A stretch of DNA of 64,000 bases from a virus: the IMG/VR virus record IMGVR_UViG_3300044712_000991, positions 130,279 through 194,278 of that record; one strand, given 5' to 3'. Below the pieces are notes generated by a model. That model made no database searches. It worked only from the letters and a program-made list of their open reading frames with translations, and was not told the origin of the DNA. Positions within the stretch are counted from its first letter, which is position 1, and every line of letters starts with the position of its first letter. Below are positions 4,785-40,900 of this stretch, one piece after another. The position numbers and the translations under genes were made by a program.

Positions 4785-5090
4785 TCATCCCTTCTTCGGC
4801 TGTGCGGGAGCACCGCTCGCAAGCAGGGCTTCCTGGACGAAACTCACCTTGTCCAACGCCGGGGCGTGACGGTCGTACACAGCGACCATCTTGCGCATAC
4901 CCTTCACGGCCTCTTCGAGTTCAGCGGCGGTCGCCTTGTGCGCATCTCCCACCGCCTGGGTCTCCTTGTCGATCAGTTCGCCGTACTTCCGCCGGATGGT
5001 CGCGACCTTGTCCTGGGCGTCCTTGTACGAGGCTTCGATACGCTTCTCGAACTCATCAATCTGCTGTTCGAGCATCTGCTTCATTGTCAT
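4785..5090 (-). CDS. Coiled-coil hypothetical protein
   Basis: Heptad-like charged helix; start overlaps upstream stop. Confidence 0.65.
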   Translation of the reverse strand: MTMKQMLEQQIDEFEKRIEASYKDAQDKVATIRRKYGELIDKETQAVGDAHKATAAELEEAVKGMRKMVAVYDRHAPALDKVSFVQEALLASGAPAQPKKG

Positions 5091-5419
5091 CAGGGTGTTC
5101 CTTTCTTGATTATGTGTGCGAGTTTACGATTTGCCTTCTGCTCGGCACGGAGGTCGCGCTCGACCTTGTCCGCGAGTTCCGTGTGGAGCTCTTTGAGGAT
5201 CAACTCTGCGTGGCGACGGATACGGTCAGCGGCTACTCCTGCGTACGCATCCTTGAGAACGAGGCGCGGGACGAGCATCGCCTTCGTACACTTGAACATC
5301 GTATGACACTCCTCGCACCAACAGTCTTCCCGGAAGCCCTCGGACTCCGTGGACAGACCGCTCACGCGGTACAGGGGCTCCCCGCATTTGGGGCACAACA
5401 TCTCGCTATTGCTTGCCAT
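5090..5419 (-). CDS. Zinc-ribbon hypothetical protein
   Basis: CPKCG...CEECH; downstream of promoter 5443-5471. Confidence 0.65.
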   Translation of the reverse strand: MASNSEMLCPKCGEPLYRVSGLSTESEGFREDCWCEECHTMFKCTKAMLVPRLVLKDAYAGVAADRIRRHAELILKELHTELADKVERDLRAEQKANRKLAHIIKKGTP

Positions 5420-5442
5420 GGGATGTAGTCCTTTCGTGGTCA

Positions 5443-5471
5443 AAGATACGCAAATCAAAGAAGAAAAGCAA
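5443..5471 (-). promoter_or_regulatory. sigma70-type promoter TTGCTT-N17-TATCTT
   Basis: 17-bp spacing, same architecture as the other early promoters. Confidence 0.55.
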
Positions 5472-5504
5472 ATCGCGCTGAGTAAAATTACTCAACGCAT
5501 TGAG

Positions 5505-5532
5505 TAAAACAAATCGGGGGCTTGCGCCCCCG
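5505..5532 (-). terminator. Intrinsic terminator after the RAMP-like gene
   Basis: CGGGGGC-GCAA-GCCCCCG hairpin followed by ATTTGTTTT. Confidence 0.75.
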
Positions 5533-5544
5533 AAGAAATGATGA

Positions 5545-6144
5545 CTACTTCACGGCTTTCACGGACTCCACCGTGAACCGCCCGTGCTCGGGACGCCAGT
5601 CGCACAGACCGATCTCCCGCCCTGCGACCTCCACGAACTTCTTGATTGAGGCTTCATCCACGAGGTCGGGCATGAAGGTCACGGTGAACGTGAGCCCCCA
5701 CCGTTTGAACTCGGGGCGGGTGCGCATCACGCTCGACTGCCCGATCTTGACAGCCACGCGGGACATGTTCATCCCTTCCGCGTACAGCTTCTTGATGTCC
5801 TTCGGACCATCGTAGTCCAGGAGGTTGTCCTCGTAGATGCCGAGGGCGGACTTCGCGGTCGGTCCCTGTTTTGACCGCTTGGCGGCGTTCACAATCATCG
5901 CCTTCAGGACATACCCCGGGATGATGATTTGGTTCTTGGTGTTGAGGTACAGGCTAGCGAAGAACTCGATCCGCGCCATCTCCTCGTGGTCGTCATCCGT
6001 CTTCTGCTTCTTGCCCGAAACGGACTTGAGCTCCTTGGATGCCTTGGACAGCGGGTCTTTCAGCGCCACGCCGTTGTGCATGATGAGACTGTCCACACCT
6101 TCGATAACGAACTGCAATTTGCGAAGACCATTTTCGGTGGCCAT
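5545..6144 (-). CDS. RAMP/Cas7-like phage protein, putative effector for the adjacent pentamer array (Vipr-like)
   Basis: AGGAG SD; beta1 LQFVIEGVDSLIMHN, IPGYVLKAMIVNAAK (RAMP IPG-x-x-[LI]-K motif), C-terminal Gly loop GREIGLCDWRPEHGRFTV. Confidence 0.7.
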   Translation of the reverse strand: MATENGLRKLQFVIEGVDSLIMHNGVALKDPLSKASKELKSVSGKKQKTDDDHEEMARIEFFASLYLNTKNQIIIPGYVLKAMIVNAAKRSKQGPTAKSALGIYEDNLLDYDGPKDIKKLYAEGMNMSRVAVKIGQSSVMRTRPEFKRWGLTFTVTFMPDLVDEASIKKFVEVAGREIGLCDWRPEHGRFTVESVKAVK

Positions 6145-6275
6145 GATTTGTTTCTCCTGTATGTGCATGTTGAACTTTGTAGGCAGTCCAACGAGGCCTG
6201 TTGATGCTCTACTACTGACATCTACCTCTCCAATTCACACGCTACCTCACCTCAACCGCGCCTTAAGTGTACCAC

Positions 6276-6304
6276 AAGATACAAAATGAATTCTCGATTG
6301 TCAA
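6276..6304 (-). promoter_or_regulatory. sigma70 promoter TTGACA-N17-TATCTT for the RAMP-like gene
   Basis: -35 at 6299-6304, -10 at 6276-6281. Confidence 0.75.
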
Positions 6305-6330
6305 GTGCTATGCAGAAAAATCTTTGATGG

Positions 6331-6732
6331 GTACCTAATGACCGTACCAGACTCTACCTAACCCATCCGTGACCATCCAGACCCTACCCTGCCGAACCCA
6401 TTGTACCTAATGACCACACCAGACCTCTCCACGACAGACCGAGACTTGCCTCGCCTTGCCGTTCCGTACCGCTCCAGAACAGACCAAAAGTACCTAATGA
6501 CCGTACCAATGCCCACCAAACCTTTCCCCTCCCAAACCAAACATGCCTTACCGGAACGACCCTTACCATATTCAAAACGTTTTTACTTAATATCCTTACC
6601 AGACCATTACAAAACTTGCCGATCCACTCCTATCCAGACCAATCCTCACCGTTTGTACCTAATGACCACACCGAATCCTACCGCGCCTTTCCTTGCCGAA
6701 CCCAGACCTAACACATCGCTCCGATCCCAACC
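6331..6732 (-). repeat. Non-coding array of five units, each 12-15 GGH-NN pentamers closed by GGTCA-TTAGGTAC (putative guide-RNA array)
   Basis: Manual phasing: 66/67 pentamers start with G, 52/67 with GG, third base G only once; TTAGGTAC at 6662-6655, 6497-6490, 6410-6403, 6338-6331 and variant TTAAGTAA at 6590-6583. Confidence 0.9.
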
Positions 6733-7017
6733 TTATTTTGAAACGCTCTTTGCCCTCATCGTCGCCCCCTGCGTCCGCACGGGACACACATGGATGTCCG
6801 CTCTCTCAATCGCTCGCAGACCACCCTGCACGCGCTGCACAGGTGTGGGGATCACTTGCGACCTCTGAGGACGATGTACATGCGTGTGTGTACGCGCTTC
6901 TACAGGGCTCACGAGGATCACGCTCTTGCGGTACTTCCGCACCTCCTGGTACGCTTCCCGCGCAGAAAAAGATAGTGCGGGAATCACCTGGTTGGAGCAC
7001 CGCGTCGTGCACCGCAT
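6733..7017 (-). CDS. Hypothetical protein; its stop abuts the array
   Basis: MRCTTRCSNQVIP...SVSK*, follows the 7032 stop; weak SD. Confidence 0.4.
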   Translation of the reverse strand: MRCTTRCSNQVIPALSFSAREAYQEVRKYRKSVILVSPVEARTHTHVHRPQRSQVIPTPVQRVQGGLRAIERADIHVCPVRTQGATMRAKSVSK

Positions 7018-7031
7018 TATCTTGCCTAGTT

Positions 7032-7841
7032 TCACAGGCGATGCTCCGTAGGGAACTGCGCCTTGATCCTGAATAGATGGGGTTGCCACGAGTACGACCC
7101 ATCGGGCTCCACATCGAACGCCACGGCACCGAAGTGCAGAAGGCCTGAACATCTGCGTCCCCCGTATTTCGACCCCGCTGCTTGGAGCGCAGGGAGGGTC
7201 ATCGCCACGGCCATCCTGTCCTTGATGGGGAAGTACGCCGCCCCATGGTAGTGCACGTGCGATCTGCACAGGATGTCCGCCCGAGGAGCTTCACCAGCCA
7301 CGAACTCGAAGAGATTCCACATCAGTTCCTTCATCACGGGCGTGAGCCTCGTGTGGGGCAACGAGGAGTTGCCTACATGGTGTTTGAAGTTGAACTTCAG
7401 CCCGTTCACATCCAGACGAACAACATCCTCCGCCGTGGCATTGAATGCCTTGGTCATCGTGGACTCGAAGTCCTCCGCATCTCCCACATGGTACCCTGTA
7501 CCGTAGGCGAAGAAGTGCTGTTTGGCACGCGCTTGCCGGATGCACACACTCGCAATCTCTGCCTGTTTGAGTCTATCTGTCGTGATCTGCTCGGTTCCAC
7601 CGCTACGCATACCTTGACCATCGATGGCATCCCCGTTGACCACGAGAGCATCGATGGGTTGCAGGTCATCCATAGTGACCACATACTTGTCCCACAGTTC
7701 GCGCCGGATGTTGTACACCTTGCGACCACCGAGGGCTTTTCCAGGATCGAACTGCGGTGGGGTGAGCCCCACGATGTGTCCGCAGTGCATGTCGCCAATG
7801 ACAACGATGCGTTTGGTCTTCCGTTCTGTCGCTACCGCCAT
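7032..7841 (-). CDS. Calcineurin-like metallophosphoesterase
   Basis: GDMHCGH, NGDAIDG, GTGYH, FKHH, RSHVH motifs. Confidence 0.85.
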   Translation of the reverse strand: MAVATERKTKRIVVIGDMHCGHIVGLTPPQFDPGKALGGRKVYNIRRELWDKYVVTMDDLQPIDALVVNGDAIDGQGMRSGGTEQITTDRLKQAEIASVCIRQARAKQHFFAYGTGYHVGDAEDFESTMTKAFNATAEDVVRLDVNGLKFNFKHHVGNSSLPHTRLTPVMKELMWNLFEFVAGEAPRADILCRSHVHYHGAAYFPIKDRMAVAMTLPALQAAGSKYGGRRCSGLLHFGAVAFDVEPDGSYSWQPHLFRIKAQFPTEHRL

Positions 7842-7860
7842 GGGTTTCCTTTCAAGTTGT

Positions 7861-8196
7861 TTACCACAGTCTGACCTGCATCCCCAATCGGGGTATGAAG
7901 TACAGCGGTTTCTCTGTCAGCGCCCGCTCCTGCCACATCTCGATCTCGACCCCCACCCCAATCCTGGGGTGCACCCAGTACTGCACCCACTGCTTGCTGT
8001 CGAACTGCCGAGCCCAGTACCATGTGTAGGACGACCACACGAGGGTCGAGTCCTTCAGGGGTTGATAGTGCGAAAAGCCGAGCACGGGCATCCGCGAGGG
8101 GGTGTCGTAGTACAGTTCGAACACCCCGTACGAGGAACTCTCTTGAGCAACACCTACGACACTGCTGAGGATCAGCAACAGAAGGATGACCTTCAC
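7861..8196 (-). CDS. Signal-peptide, beta-strand-rich exported protein (possible small outer-membrane protein)
   Basis: GTG start with GGAGG; MKVILLLLILSSVVGVAQ signal; alternating aromatic strands; C-terminal Trp. Confidence 0.6.
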   Translation of the reverse strand: MKVILLLLILSSVVGVAQESSSYGVFELYYDTPSRMPVLGFSHYQPLKDSTLVWSSYTWYWARQFDSKQWVQYWVHPRIGVGVEIEMWQERALTEKPLYFIPRLGMQVRLW

Positions 8197-37997: not shown

Positions 37998-40900
37998 GGA
38001 AACGCTCCCGGATGTCTTCCAGTTTCTGTTTGAGTACAGCAGGGGAGAAGGACTCCAAGGGAATGAGCCCCGTGCTTCCCGTTGTTTTCTCTGTGACCAC
38101 CACGAACGATCCATGGGAGGGCGTACGCTGTATACCGTTGAAGGTCGCCCCCTCGGCCTCCACGATCGCCCTAAGATTCTCCTCCGCTGCCCCCGCGCCG
38201 AGTTCCAGTCCAGCTTGTACAGCAGGAATGTCTAGCGTTAACAGGGTCTCCCCTGTGGGGGCATACATCGCGAACGTTAAGAGTCCCGATGAGGAGTCAA
38301 CTCCAATAAGTTGGTAACGCGAGGCACGCACAACATCCACCGCGTGGGCACCGAACTTATGCATAAATTCTTGGCGTGCATGTGTCTGCACGTACTTCTG
38401 CACGGTCTCGAAGAGGGAGCCCTGTGCGTAGAACTGGAAGAACTGCCCACGGAGCCCACGGTACGCACGCGTACTCGTGGTGTCCATCGTCTCCTGCACG
38501 GCCTTGGGAGTCAGCGGTTCGGTCGTGGTACCCGCCTCAAGCCAGTCCTTGAACTGCTGAATGGTCAGCGCGTGCCCATCGATCGTACCGCCCTGCTGCT
38601 CCAGCCAGTCCTTCTCATAGTTCGAGAGGTACTCCTTGATGGCATCCTCTTCGTTGTGGGTGCCCATGACCACCTTGTGCTCATCGAACCCCCGACCACC
38701 CTTGCGCTTCTGGTTCACGACGTACACGAACTCACTGTCGTGGTGCTCTCCCACGACCACATCGAGCTCATCCTTGTCCTTCCCGCGTACGCCCTTGATG
38801 TACCCATAGTCCGAGTGCATCTCCTGCGACCACTCGTGACCATCCCTGTCCTTCCCACACCGCGTACTCCCCTTGGGGTTCTCGATCACGATATCAAGCC
38901 CATGGAGCCGCACATGACCCTTCTTGTAGTTCCCCGCCTCGATCTGGGCCTCAGAGGGCTCGGTCTCCACATCTTGGTCGGCCACGAGAGAATCCTCGTG
39001 CACATCAGCAAACTTGAGCGATGTCGTCTTTGTCAGCGTCTCATGTACAACAGGTAGCTCTTCTACAGATGATACACCGTGTGGAACTTCTGGATCATAC
39101 CATTTCCCCCCGTAATGTAGCACCGCATGTGGGCAGAAAAACTCACCCTCCATGGAGTACTTCGCATCCGTTTCGTCCAACCACACAATGTCACCCTCTC
39201 CCAACGCATTCTTAGCGGCTTCTGCCCACACTTCGCACCAACCTGTAGCGATATGCCACGGGGTGGGTCGCGTGTGTACGGGCGTACCCCCCATCTGGGG
39301 ATACCACCCCTCCTGTTGCATACGATCTAGAATTCGCTCAGTAACAGCACGCAAGGTCGTCTCCACGCCCTGCCCGTGCACGAGCGACTTGGGGTCTACC
39401 GCACCCGCAGCACGCATCTGACGCCGTTTGAGTCCCTCTATGACCGCATCCGCTACCGCCCGCAGTTCATCTACCGTGAAGCCAACAAGATGATACCCGT
39501 ACTGTGTTTCTTCGTTGAGTGTCATGTCAGTGTTTTCGTAGTACGTGAAGTACGAATCATCCGCACCTCCCACATCCTCCGTTGCACCCTCATCGAGCAA
39601 GTAACGCCCCACGACCTGCCCAATGTAATCCGTGATAGACCCCCCGAAATCCAGGTAGTCCTCCAGATCAAAATTGAACTCCTCTCCCTCTTCGTTCTGC
39701 CAACCAGAGTCCGAGAAGTCTCCCGTTTCGGCGCTCTCCGGGGTGGTCTTGGTGTACGAGATACGAACCTTCTTTCCCTGTGTAGCACGCTCGAAGTCCG
39801 TACCGTTCATGACATCCAGACCTTCAGCGAAGGTGAAGAGCGAGGCTCTCCTACGCGGGAGACCACGCTTGGAGCCAAAGAATGTGTTGCTCCTCAGGAG
39901 GAACGGTCCCCTTGCCGCGCTTACGGTCACCATGGATGACCTCCACGGTATCTCCTGGGGGTTCTGCGCAGTGGCATCACCCCACGCCGCACCCTTGATA
40001 GTCACGGTATCCGTAACGTTATCTATCGAAAAGGGCACACCGTGTACACCGTTCCACGCGATGACCACCTCAGGATCGAAGATGTACAGCAGGTGGTTAC
40101 CGACCTCCCACACCTGGCGGGGGGCGAGTTTGCGCAGGAAGTCCACCCATGTGTAGGTCTGACCCACCTCGGGCTCCACGGTACCCAAGCCTTCGGCGTG
40201 CGTACTGAGCGAGCCCTGCTGTCTGCGCATCCACCGCTTCTTCGTCCGCTCATCCTTGAAGAACGAGTTGCTGATCAGTTTGTACGGGCCACGGTCGAGA
40301 ATAAGCCCCCTGTACCCACCTGGAGGTACAACCAAAACCCGCCCTTCCTCTGGTACGGCCAGCCACACCCCCCGAGCTATCTTCACCCGATCACACACCT
40401 CTGGCATCGTGAGCGCAGTATCTGGAGAAAATGGATGTGTTTCATCATCCATGTCGTACGCATCGATAATTGTCCCATTATATATGCATGCGTACATCGC
40501 ATCGGGGGACTCTACATCCTCCCACACCTGCCCAGGGCGAAGGCTCTTCAAGAACTCCGCCCACTCGTAGGTCTGACCCTCCTGGAGTGCGTTCTCCATG
40601 ACCTCCAAGCCCTCAGCGAAAGTGAAGAGCGAGGTGTTGGTATGGAGTGTCTCGGGTCCCATATCATTATGAATATCCCGTGCATCCCCAGGTAGATCAG
40701 TGAAGAACGTGACCCCCAAATCCTTTTTGAGGTTGTGAAACTCATAGTACTGCAACATGGGATGCCAGAGCACAATAACTGGATCATCGGGCATCATCTG
40801 ATAAAACGCGTCCGTCCCCACATGATAATGCTCTTTGAACTTCGTCATCGACAGCATTTTATCTCGGGGGTACACCCCCTCCACCTCATACTGCTGAATG

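What the first reader, a model, noticed from the sequence alone, without database searches (positions are those of the whole stretch)
6331..6732. Five-unit GGH-NN pentamer array: putative non-contiguous guide RNAs
On the minus strand there are units of 14, 12, 14, 15 and 12 pentamers. Position 1 is G in 66/67, positions 1-2 are GG in 52/67, position 3 is almost never G, and positions 4-5 vary freely. Each unit ends in GGTCA-TTAGGTAC (one variant GGATA-TTAAGTAA) plus a 4-nt spacer, which resembles a processing handle. This is not a CRISPR array or a simple satellite: constant scaffold bases are interleaved with variable information. The frequent GGA and GT variants broaden a strict GGY pattern.
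Basis: partly seen in the sequence, partly recalled or inferred. Interest (0 to 1): 0.95.

Follow-up and report, generated by a model that had tools for sequence, protein, structure and literature searches.

The report
Phage VIPR guide-RNA array
The five-unit array of five-base repeats is a real guide-RNA array of a VIPR system, a CRISPR-related phage silencing system first described in 2026 preprints, so it is a new example of a known kind.

Summary
There are 67 in-phase pentamers in five units (14/12/14/15/12) on the minus strand, with G at position 1 in 66/67, GG in 52/67, G at position 3 once, and near-random positions 4-5.

The reading as non-contiguous guide RNAs is supported but not new. 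The adjacent 199-aa protein matches the solved 'SUSP1 Vipr protein' (PDB 36pp, E 7.5e-20), keeps its GG-binding residues and folds like Cas7/Csm3. Of 80 related viral loci, 77 carry same-strand GGNNN arrays.

This is the published VIPR system (bioRxiv 10.64898/2026.04.26.720920, .720927, 2026.10.15.759431). This scan has already noted VIPR-like arrays 216 times in at least 165 other genomes.

Local peculiarities:
- Only 12 nt separate the repeat tracts, and there is no structured ~40-nt tail.
- GGA makes up 29% of GG units, against 7.6% in relatives.
- The array lies only upstream of vipr, a minority layout.
- No vap1 homologue was found in the 194-kb phage.

Compact arrays with 4-nt linkers are common among relatives, so the architecture is a variation rather than a new kind. 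I found no target and no self-target. Expression could not be tested.

The parts
6331..6732 (-). vrRNA array: five guide units, 67 GGHNN pentamers
6655..6732 (-). unit 1: 14 pentamers plus 8-nt tail
6583..6654 (-). unit 2: 4-nt spacer, 12 pentamers, variant tail (4 substitutions in the 13-nt end motif)
6490..6582 (-). unit 3: spacer, two degenerate pentamers and a 1-nt slip, then 14 pentamers and tail
6403..6489 (-). unit 4: 4-nt spacer, 15 pentamers, tail
6331..6402 (-). unit 5: 4-nt spacer, 12 pentamers, tail
6276..6304 (-). sigma-70-like promoter (10 of 12 consensus matches, 17-nt spacer) between the array and vipr
6145..6269 (-). predicted vipr leader, with a short degenerate run of about 4-6 GG pentamers (about 6225-6262) and a Shine-Dalgarno site 7 nt before the ATG at 6144
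   Evidence: reading of the sequence
5545..6144 (-). vipr gene, 199 aa, RAMP/Cas7-like. The ORF opens at 6168, but the ribosome-binding site and the database cluster P0001 point to a start at 6144.
5474..5533 (-). two terminator-like hairpins directly after vipr
7032..7841 (-). upstream metallophosphoesterase-like gene (269 aa). It is a possible source of read-through transcription into the array. Its association with vipr is weak and recurs in only a few loci.

Best explanation
This is a VIPR (Viral Interference Programmable Repeat) locus of a 194-kb rhizosphere phage.

Proposed mechanism:
- The minus strand of 6732-6331 is transcribed into a precursor holding five guide RNAs (vrRNAs) of 12-15 pentamers each.
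- The 199-aa Vipr protein encoded just downstream binds one protomer per pentamer. It holds G1, G2 and base 3 in protein pockets and presents bases 4-5.
- The resulting helical filament binds double-stranded DNA in which one strand reads NN-x repeated (one skipped base per two read). It forms a gapped R-loop/triplex and blocks transcription.
- Each of the five guides therefore names one target of about 36-45 bp, most likely in a rival phage or other mobile element of the same host.

Shown here: the anatomy of the array, the homology and conserved GG-contact residues of the protein, and the strand-specific co-occurrence of gene and array across relatives.

Taken from the published work on SUSP1: RNA expression, protein binding, the skip rule and silencing.

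Inferred or unknown: the promoter (probably read-through from the upstream operon), how the units are separated, and the targets. For unit separation I propose host RNase cutting in the exposed A/U-rich 12-nt linker between protein-covered tracts.
For: - Protein homology: phmmer hit to PDB 36pp 'SUSP1 Vipr protein', E 7.5e-20 over residues 19-202. BLASTP to SUSP1 agp039, 30% identity, E 4e-27. phrog_4652, E 1.7e-45.
- Conserved contact residues: the SUSP1 residues reported to bind G1/G2 and the target backbone (H17, K33, R138, D177, W178, R179) align to H31, K48, R151, D190, W191, R192. They are nearly invariant in about 55 relatives.
- Fold: the AlphaFold model has pLDDT 95.7 and matches Csm3/Cmr4 Cas7 RAMPs, Foldseek E 3e-7 and probability 1.0.
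- Array grammar: it fits the published 9-16 GGY/NN repeats followed by a constant 3' end.
- SUSP1 check: its intergenic regions show the same grammar at the places the paper describes.
- Co-occurrence: 77 of 80 IMG/VR loci with a 37-63% identical Vipr carry same-strand pentamer runs, and 1 of 80 carries one on the opposite strand. The median distance to vipr is 206 nt.
- No self-target: the best self matches are 63-71% of NN, below the published 80% cut-off, as the paper also reports.
- The unbound RNA is no more structured than shuffles, z 0.25.
Against: - The published type II guides end in a conserved ~40-nt structured tail (a pseudoknot), which the October preprint treats as needed for complex formation. 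Here only 13 constant bases and a 4-nt spacer separate the tracts, and a 5-bp mini-hairpin forms in only 3 of 5 units, without significance.
- No promoter was recognised upstream of the array.
- Fifteen of 67 pentamers lack GG, and 15 of the 52 GG units are GGA, which the SUSP1 pocket is said to exclude.
- The tail of unit 2 is mutated.
- No vap1 homologue was found in the genome.
Confidence: 0.85

Rival explanations
1. The array is a decaying or silent remnant. The vipr gene is intact, but the array has lost its structured tails and its promoter and no longer yields working guides.
For: There is no structured tail and no recognised promoter. The tail of unit 2 is mutated, and 22% of pentamers lack GG. 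No target was found.
Against: Phase is kept over 67 pentamers, and G1 is kept in 66 of 67. Four of the five unit ends are identical. Relatives with equally short linkers (4 nt) carry many units, so short linkers are a normal layout rather than decay. The closest relative also shows GT variants.
Confidence: 0.08
2. The array works mainly as a decoy or competitor: RNAs that soak up or redirect the Vipr protein of a rival phage, as published for solo vrRNAs, or that regulate the phage's own Vipr level.
For: The October 2026 preprint shows solo vrRNAs redirecting a rival's Vipr. A short pentamer run lies in vipr's own leader.
Against: The phage has its own intact vipr directly beside the array, in the same orientation. 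That is the standard arrangement of a complete system.
Confidence: 0.05
3. The array acts as DNA (protein-binding iterons or G-quadruplex-prone DNA) or encodes a repetitive peptide.
For: A 155-aa ORF (6401-6868, plus strand) crosses the array, and the four measurable unit lengths (72, 93, 87 and 72 nt for units 2-5) are all multiples of three.
Against: A 5-nt period cannot be a codon period. The plus-strand ORF has no Pfam or PHROG match. It is expected by composition, because with CC in every pentamer only one trinucleotide window in five can be a stop. The strict same-strand coupling to vipr (77 loci against 1 of 80) points to RNA rather than DNA.
Confidence: 0.02

Closest known systems
Type II VIPR system of Escherichia phage SUSP1 (Vipr, vap1, four vrRNAs; bioRxiv 10.64898/2026.04.26.720920 and .720927; PDB 36pp)
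   Same: Both have a homologous ~200-aa RAMP protein with the same GG-contact residues. Both have guides of 12-16 GG-pyrimidine-NN pentamers on the same strand next to the gene, a constant 3' end, a phage origin and no self-target.
   Different: Protein identity is only 30%. Here there is no ~40-nt pseudoknot tail, only a 12-nt linker. No vap1 gene was found in the genome. All guides lie upstream in one tight array. Position 3 is relaxed to A/C/T, and position 2 is T in 16% of units. The position-3 pocket residues also differ (E71/M72/C173 in SUSP1; Y86/V87/I186 here).
Compact VIPR arrays: the 'staggered arrays' of the first preprint (its fig. S18) and the IMG/VR relatives seen here (for example L055, L058, L071, L073)
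   Same: Many guide units are packed head to tail with only a few bases between them, each closed by a short constant motif rather than a long structured tail. The Vipr proteins are 42-46% identical to this one.
   Different: The relatives use a different end motif and a 4-nt linker, and nearly all place the array downstream of vipr. Here the motif is a 13-nt sequence found nowhere else as an array in IMG/VR, and the array is upstream. I could not see the preprint's figure, so I cannot say whether this counts as 'staggered'.
Cas7-family backbone subunits of class 1 CRISPR effectors (Csm3, Cmr4)
   Same: The fold is the same (Foldseek probability 1.0, TM about 0.5), and so is the logic of one protomer per short stretch of guide, with a thumb that breaks the duplex periodically.
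   Different: There are no CRISPR repeats or spacers, and no other cas gene is adjacent. The period is 5 nt rather than 6. Three guide bases are hidden and two are read, and the target is double-stranded DNA with a one-base skip.
Solo vrRNAs of satellites and vipr-less phages (bioRxiv 10.64898/2026.10.15.759431)
   Same: The same pentamer grammar.
   Different: Solo vrRNAs lack a vipr gene and borrow a rival's protein. This locus has its own vipr.

Membership tests
VIPR system | Vipr protein: small stand-alone RAMP (RRM core, G-loop, thumb) homologous to SUSP1 Vipr | tested here: met
   PDB 36pp, E 7.5e-20. BLASTP 30% identity, E 4e-27. Model pLDDT 95.7 with top structural matches Csm3/Cmr4.
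VIPR system | Residues that bind G1 and G2 of each repeat and the target backbone (SUSP1 H17, K33, R138, D177, W178, R179) | tested here: met
   They align to H31, K48, R151, D190, W191 and R192, and are nearly invariant across relatives.
VIPR system | Pocket that restricts repeat position 3 to a pyrimidine (SUSP1 E71, M72, C173, T175) | tested here: not met
   The aligned residues are Y86, V87, I186 and L188. In line with this, 17 of 67 units have A at position 3. The preprint accepts related consensus repeats, so this does not exclude membership.
VIPR system | Guides of about 9-16 tandem GGY-NN pentamers, next to vipr and on its strand | tested here: met
   Five units of 12-15 pentamers lie 187 nt upstream of the vipr start codon on the same strand. 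The same holds in 77 of 80 related loci.
VIPR system | Hypervariable NN positions against a constant scaffold | tested here: met
   15 of 16 dinucleotides are used, entropy 3.73 of 4 bits, against G1 in 66/67.
VIPR system | Invariant 3' tail with conserved secondary structure (about 40 nt, a pseudoknot in the SUSP1 clade) | tested here: not met
   Only a 13-nt constant end and a 4-nt spacer are present. There is no significant fold. Other published array layouts also lack this tail.
VIPR system | Accessory vap gene beside vipr | tested here: inconclusive
   No vap1 homologue (six mutually related queries) was found anywhere in the 194-kb genome or in the 80 relatives. vipr is followed by terminators.
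VIPR system | Guides expressed, processed and bound by Vipr | not testable with these tools
   Only one DNA run, probably the source sample, holds the region.
VIPR system | Natural DNA targets that obey the one-base-skip rule, and no self-target | tested here: inconclusive
   No self match reaches 80% of NN. I found no exact target in IMG/VR or JGI metagenomes for the guides tried. One weak 19/22 match was seen.
CRISPR-Cas | Array of identical direct repeats of about 24-48 nt separated by unique spacers, with cas operon | tested here: not met
   The repeat search finds only the 38-nt unit ends at 63-79% identity, and the pentamers. No Rfam family matches. The only RAMP gene stands alone.

The most novel reading that the evidence does not exclude
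This locus and its vap1-less relatives may be a tail-less form of VIPR. In this form, guides are cut out of a tight precursor and loaded without the structured 3' tail that SUSP1-type guides need. An altered position-3 pocket would also let the scaffold tolerate A (GGH rather than GGY). If so, the minimal guide requirement is smaller and the code looser than published.
Probability: 0.3. Interest if true: 0.45.

Novelty: new member of a known kind. Interest (0 to 1): 0.27.

Why it matters
VIPR is a newly described RNA-guided DNA-silencing system and a proposed ancestor of the CRISPR RAMP proteins. This locus adds an example from a large soil phage with a very compact arrangement: one gene with its own promoter and terminators, five guides separated by only 12 bases, and no vap1 homologue found. 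If these guides work, they show that a long structured tail and a strict pyrimidine at repeat position 3 are not required, which is useful for defining the minimal guide and for engineering. The class, the code and the mechanism are already in print, so the finding extends known work rather than opening a new question.

Tried and rejected
- Target searches with exact one-base-skip patterns gave no hits: guide 4 (14 NN) and guide 1 (13 NN) in IMG/VR, and guide 5 (11 NN) and the 3' 11 NN of guide 4 in JGI metagenome contigs. Guides 2 and 3 were not scanned against collections, because typed patterns are rationed.
- Mismatch-tolerant searches in the phage's own genome and in 0.92 Mb of fetched loci found nothing at or above 80% of NN, with one exception. 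Guide 5 matches L058:1531-1562 at 19/22. None of 400 shuffled guides reaches 19. However, the skipped base falls on codon position 2 and related loci do not share the match, so I treat it as a weak lead.
- Guides of the two nearest relatives do not match this phage.
- The 13-nt unit-end motif gave only single matches in IMG/VR (35 single hits), which look like chance matches.
- Expression: no RNA holder was listed for the region. The second contig that carries the identical protein could not be read.
- No DNA similarity to any INPHARED phage.
- No Rfam family, including hammerhead ribozymes, in 5000-8000.
- Relatives of a virus record cannot be drawn, so the host genome could not be searched.
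- A profile scan with the 32-sequence alignment failed. It worked with 12 sequences.
- The idea that the metallophosphoesterase neighbour is a regular accessory gene was tested and mostly rejected. It sits beside vipr in 5 loci, but in only 1 of the 80 census loci.

Full report
**Observation.** On the minus strand from 6732 to 6331 the sequence parses, counting back from each unit-end motif, into five units of 14, 12, 14, 15 and 12 in-phase pentamers.
- Position 1 is G in 66 of 67. Positions 1-2 are GG in 52. Position 3 is T 37, A 17, C 12, G 1.
- Positions 4-5 use 15 of the 16 dinucleotides, with entropy 3.73 of 4 bits.
- The chance of 66/67 G is about 1e-32 at the strand's G content, and 7e-26 even at the array's own G content.
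- Four units end in the same 13-nt motif and unit 2 carries four substitutions. A 4-nt spacer follows each of units 1-4. Before unit 3 there are also two degenerate pentamers and a 1-nt slip.

The array is unique in the genome.

**Context.** The window is the last 64 kb of a 194,278-bp IMG/VR virus record rated complete. The only sequencing run that holds it is a rhizosphere metagenome.

Directly after the array come, in order:
- a sigma-70-like promoter (6304-6276);
- a leader of about 125 nt;
- a gene that ends at 5545;
- two terminator-like hairpins.

A Shine-Dalgarno site 7 nt before the ATG at 6144, together with the database cluster P0001, gives a 199-aa product.

**The protein.**
- It has no Pfam match but belongs to phrog_4652 (E 1.7e-45).
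- It matches the solved chain 36pp_D, named 'SUSP1 Vipr protein', at E 7.5e-20.
- It matches SUSP1 gene agp039 at 30% identity, E 4e-27.
- The structure preprint names H17, D177, R138, W178 and R179 as the contacts to G1 and G2, and K33 as a backbone contact. These align to H31, D190, R151, W191, R192 and K48 here, and are almost invariant in the clade.
- The residues said to exclude purines at position 3 (E71, M72, C173) are Y86, V87 and I186 here.
- An AlphaFold model (pLDDT 95.7) matches Csm3/Cmr4 Cas7 subunits (Foldseek E 3e-7, probability 1.0, TM about 0.5).

**What is known.** They describe Viral Interference Programmable Repeat systems as follows:
- A phage-borne RAMP protein, Vipr, polymerises one protomer per repeat on vrRNAs made of 9-16 GGY/NN pentamers plus a constant 3' tail.
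- The NN dinucleotides pair with double-stranded DNA, skipping every third base.
- Binding represses transcription.
- Natural targets are rival satellites and prophages.
- There are seven types, six vap accessory genes and several array layouts, including staggered arrays and ribozyme-interspersed arrays.

SUSP1's own intergenic regions show the same grammar at the places the paper describes.

**Comparative test.** All eleven homologous loci that I fetched by hand carry a vipr homologue, and nine of them show pentamer arrays beside it; none was recognised in L047 or L048.

In a census of 80 IMG/VR loci with 37-63% identical Vipr (at least 506 relatives exist there):
- 77 have same-strand runs and one has an opposite-strand run. 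This strand coupling argues for an RNA rather than a DNA element.
- Arrays lie only downstream of vipr in 59 loci, on both sides in 15 and only upstream in 3.

**How this locus differs.**
1. The tail. In SUSP1, the named phages and the closest relative (62% identity, L045), repeat tracts are followed by 22-93 nt of hairpin, pseudoknot or tRNA-like sequence. Here tracts are 12 nt apart. The RNA is not structured (z 0.25), and a 5-bp mini-hairpin forms in only three units. However, several relatives (L055, L058, L071, L073) pack units with a short end motif and a 4-nt linker. So compact arrays are normal in this clade, and the preprint also reports contiguous 'staggered' arrays.
2. Position 3. 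GGA is 29% of GG units here against 7.6% in relatives. The other A-rich loci (L130, L083, L067) share a Cys before the D-W-R loop, but so do some A-poor loci, so the link is weak.
3. Accessory gene. The vap1 family is mutually homologous in SUSP1 and five named phages. No homologue was found in this whole genome or in the 80 relatives.
4. No promoter is recognisable upstream of the array, so read-through from the upstream operon is my inference.

**Targets.**
- The five guides decode to NNx patterns of 11-14 informative dinucleotides.
- There is no self match at or above 80% of NN, as the preprint also found for its systems.
- Exact scans for guides 4 and 1 in IMG/VR, and for guide 5 and part of guide 4 in JGI metagenomes, found nothing.
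- Among 0.92 Mb of fetched loci the best match is guide 5 at 19/22 in L058. It is better than 400 shuffled guides, but out of register with codons and not shared by related loci.
- The targets remain unknown.

**Verdict.** This scan has already noted it 216 times in at least 165 genomes. I file it as a new member of a known kind, with modest points of interest: a short linker without a structured tail, a relaxed third position, and no vap1.

Noticed in passing
window 7032-7841 (-); L052:1420-2253; L049:3168-3950; L045:2688-3641; L048:1496-2281: A metallophosphoesterase-like gene sits beside vipr or its array in five loci. In L052 the order is the same as here (phosphoesterase, array, vipr), with 49% and 38% protein identity. 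It is present in only 1 of the 80 census loci, and the family has more than 340 other homologues, so the link is weak.
   Followed up: partly
window about 6225-6262 (-): The predicted 5' leader of vipr holds a short degenerate run of about 4-6 GG pentamers without the unit-end motif. It could be a remnant guide or a site for self-regulation by Vipr. In SUSP1 a full guide sits in the same place.
   Followed up: partly
L044 (Mycobacterium phage LittleE), L041 (Gordonia phage MakoManhole), L046: Several guide tracts in actinophage and metagenomic loci are followed by T-arm-like GGTTCGA-type sequences, which suggests tRNA-like tails. ARAGORN calls no tRNA there.
   Followed up: partly
L058:1531-1562 (+): Guide 5 matches 19 of 22 informative bases under the one-base-skip rule, inside a small ORF of another VIPR-bearing viral contig. 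No shuffled guide (0 of 400) does as well, but the skipped base is at codon position 2.
   Followed up: partly
window 6401-6868 (+): A 155-aa ORF crosses the array, and the four measurable unit lengths (72, 93, 87 and 72 nt for units 2-5) are all multiples of three. The open frame is expected from composition, because CC in every pentamer leaves one possible stop window in five, and the ORF has no family match.
   Followed up: yes
window 6144 versus 6168 (-): The longest ORF starts at 6168. The ribosome-binding site and the database cluster support the ATG at 6144 (199 aa).
   Followed up: yes
80 IMG/VR loci L053-L132: The Vipr subclade at 37-63% identity to this protein has no detectable vap1 homologue, whereas the more distant named-phage loci (30-39% identity) all have one overlapping the vipr stop codon. 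The subclade may correspond to a different published type.
   Followed up: partly
window 38827-38861 (-): A seven-pentamer GG run lies inside the 2505-aa gene. It is short, coding and has no tail, so it is probably chance.
   Followed up: partly
window 5090-5458 (-): The 122-aa gene after the vipr terminators has weak zinc-ribbon matches only, and no similarity to SUSP1 vap1.
   Followed up: partly
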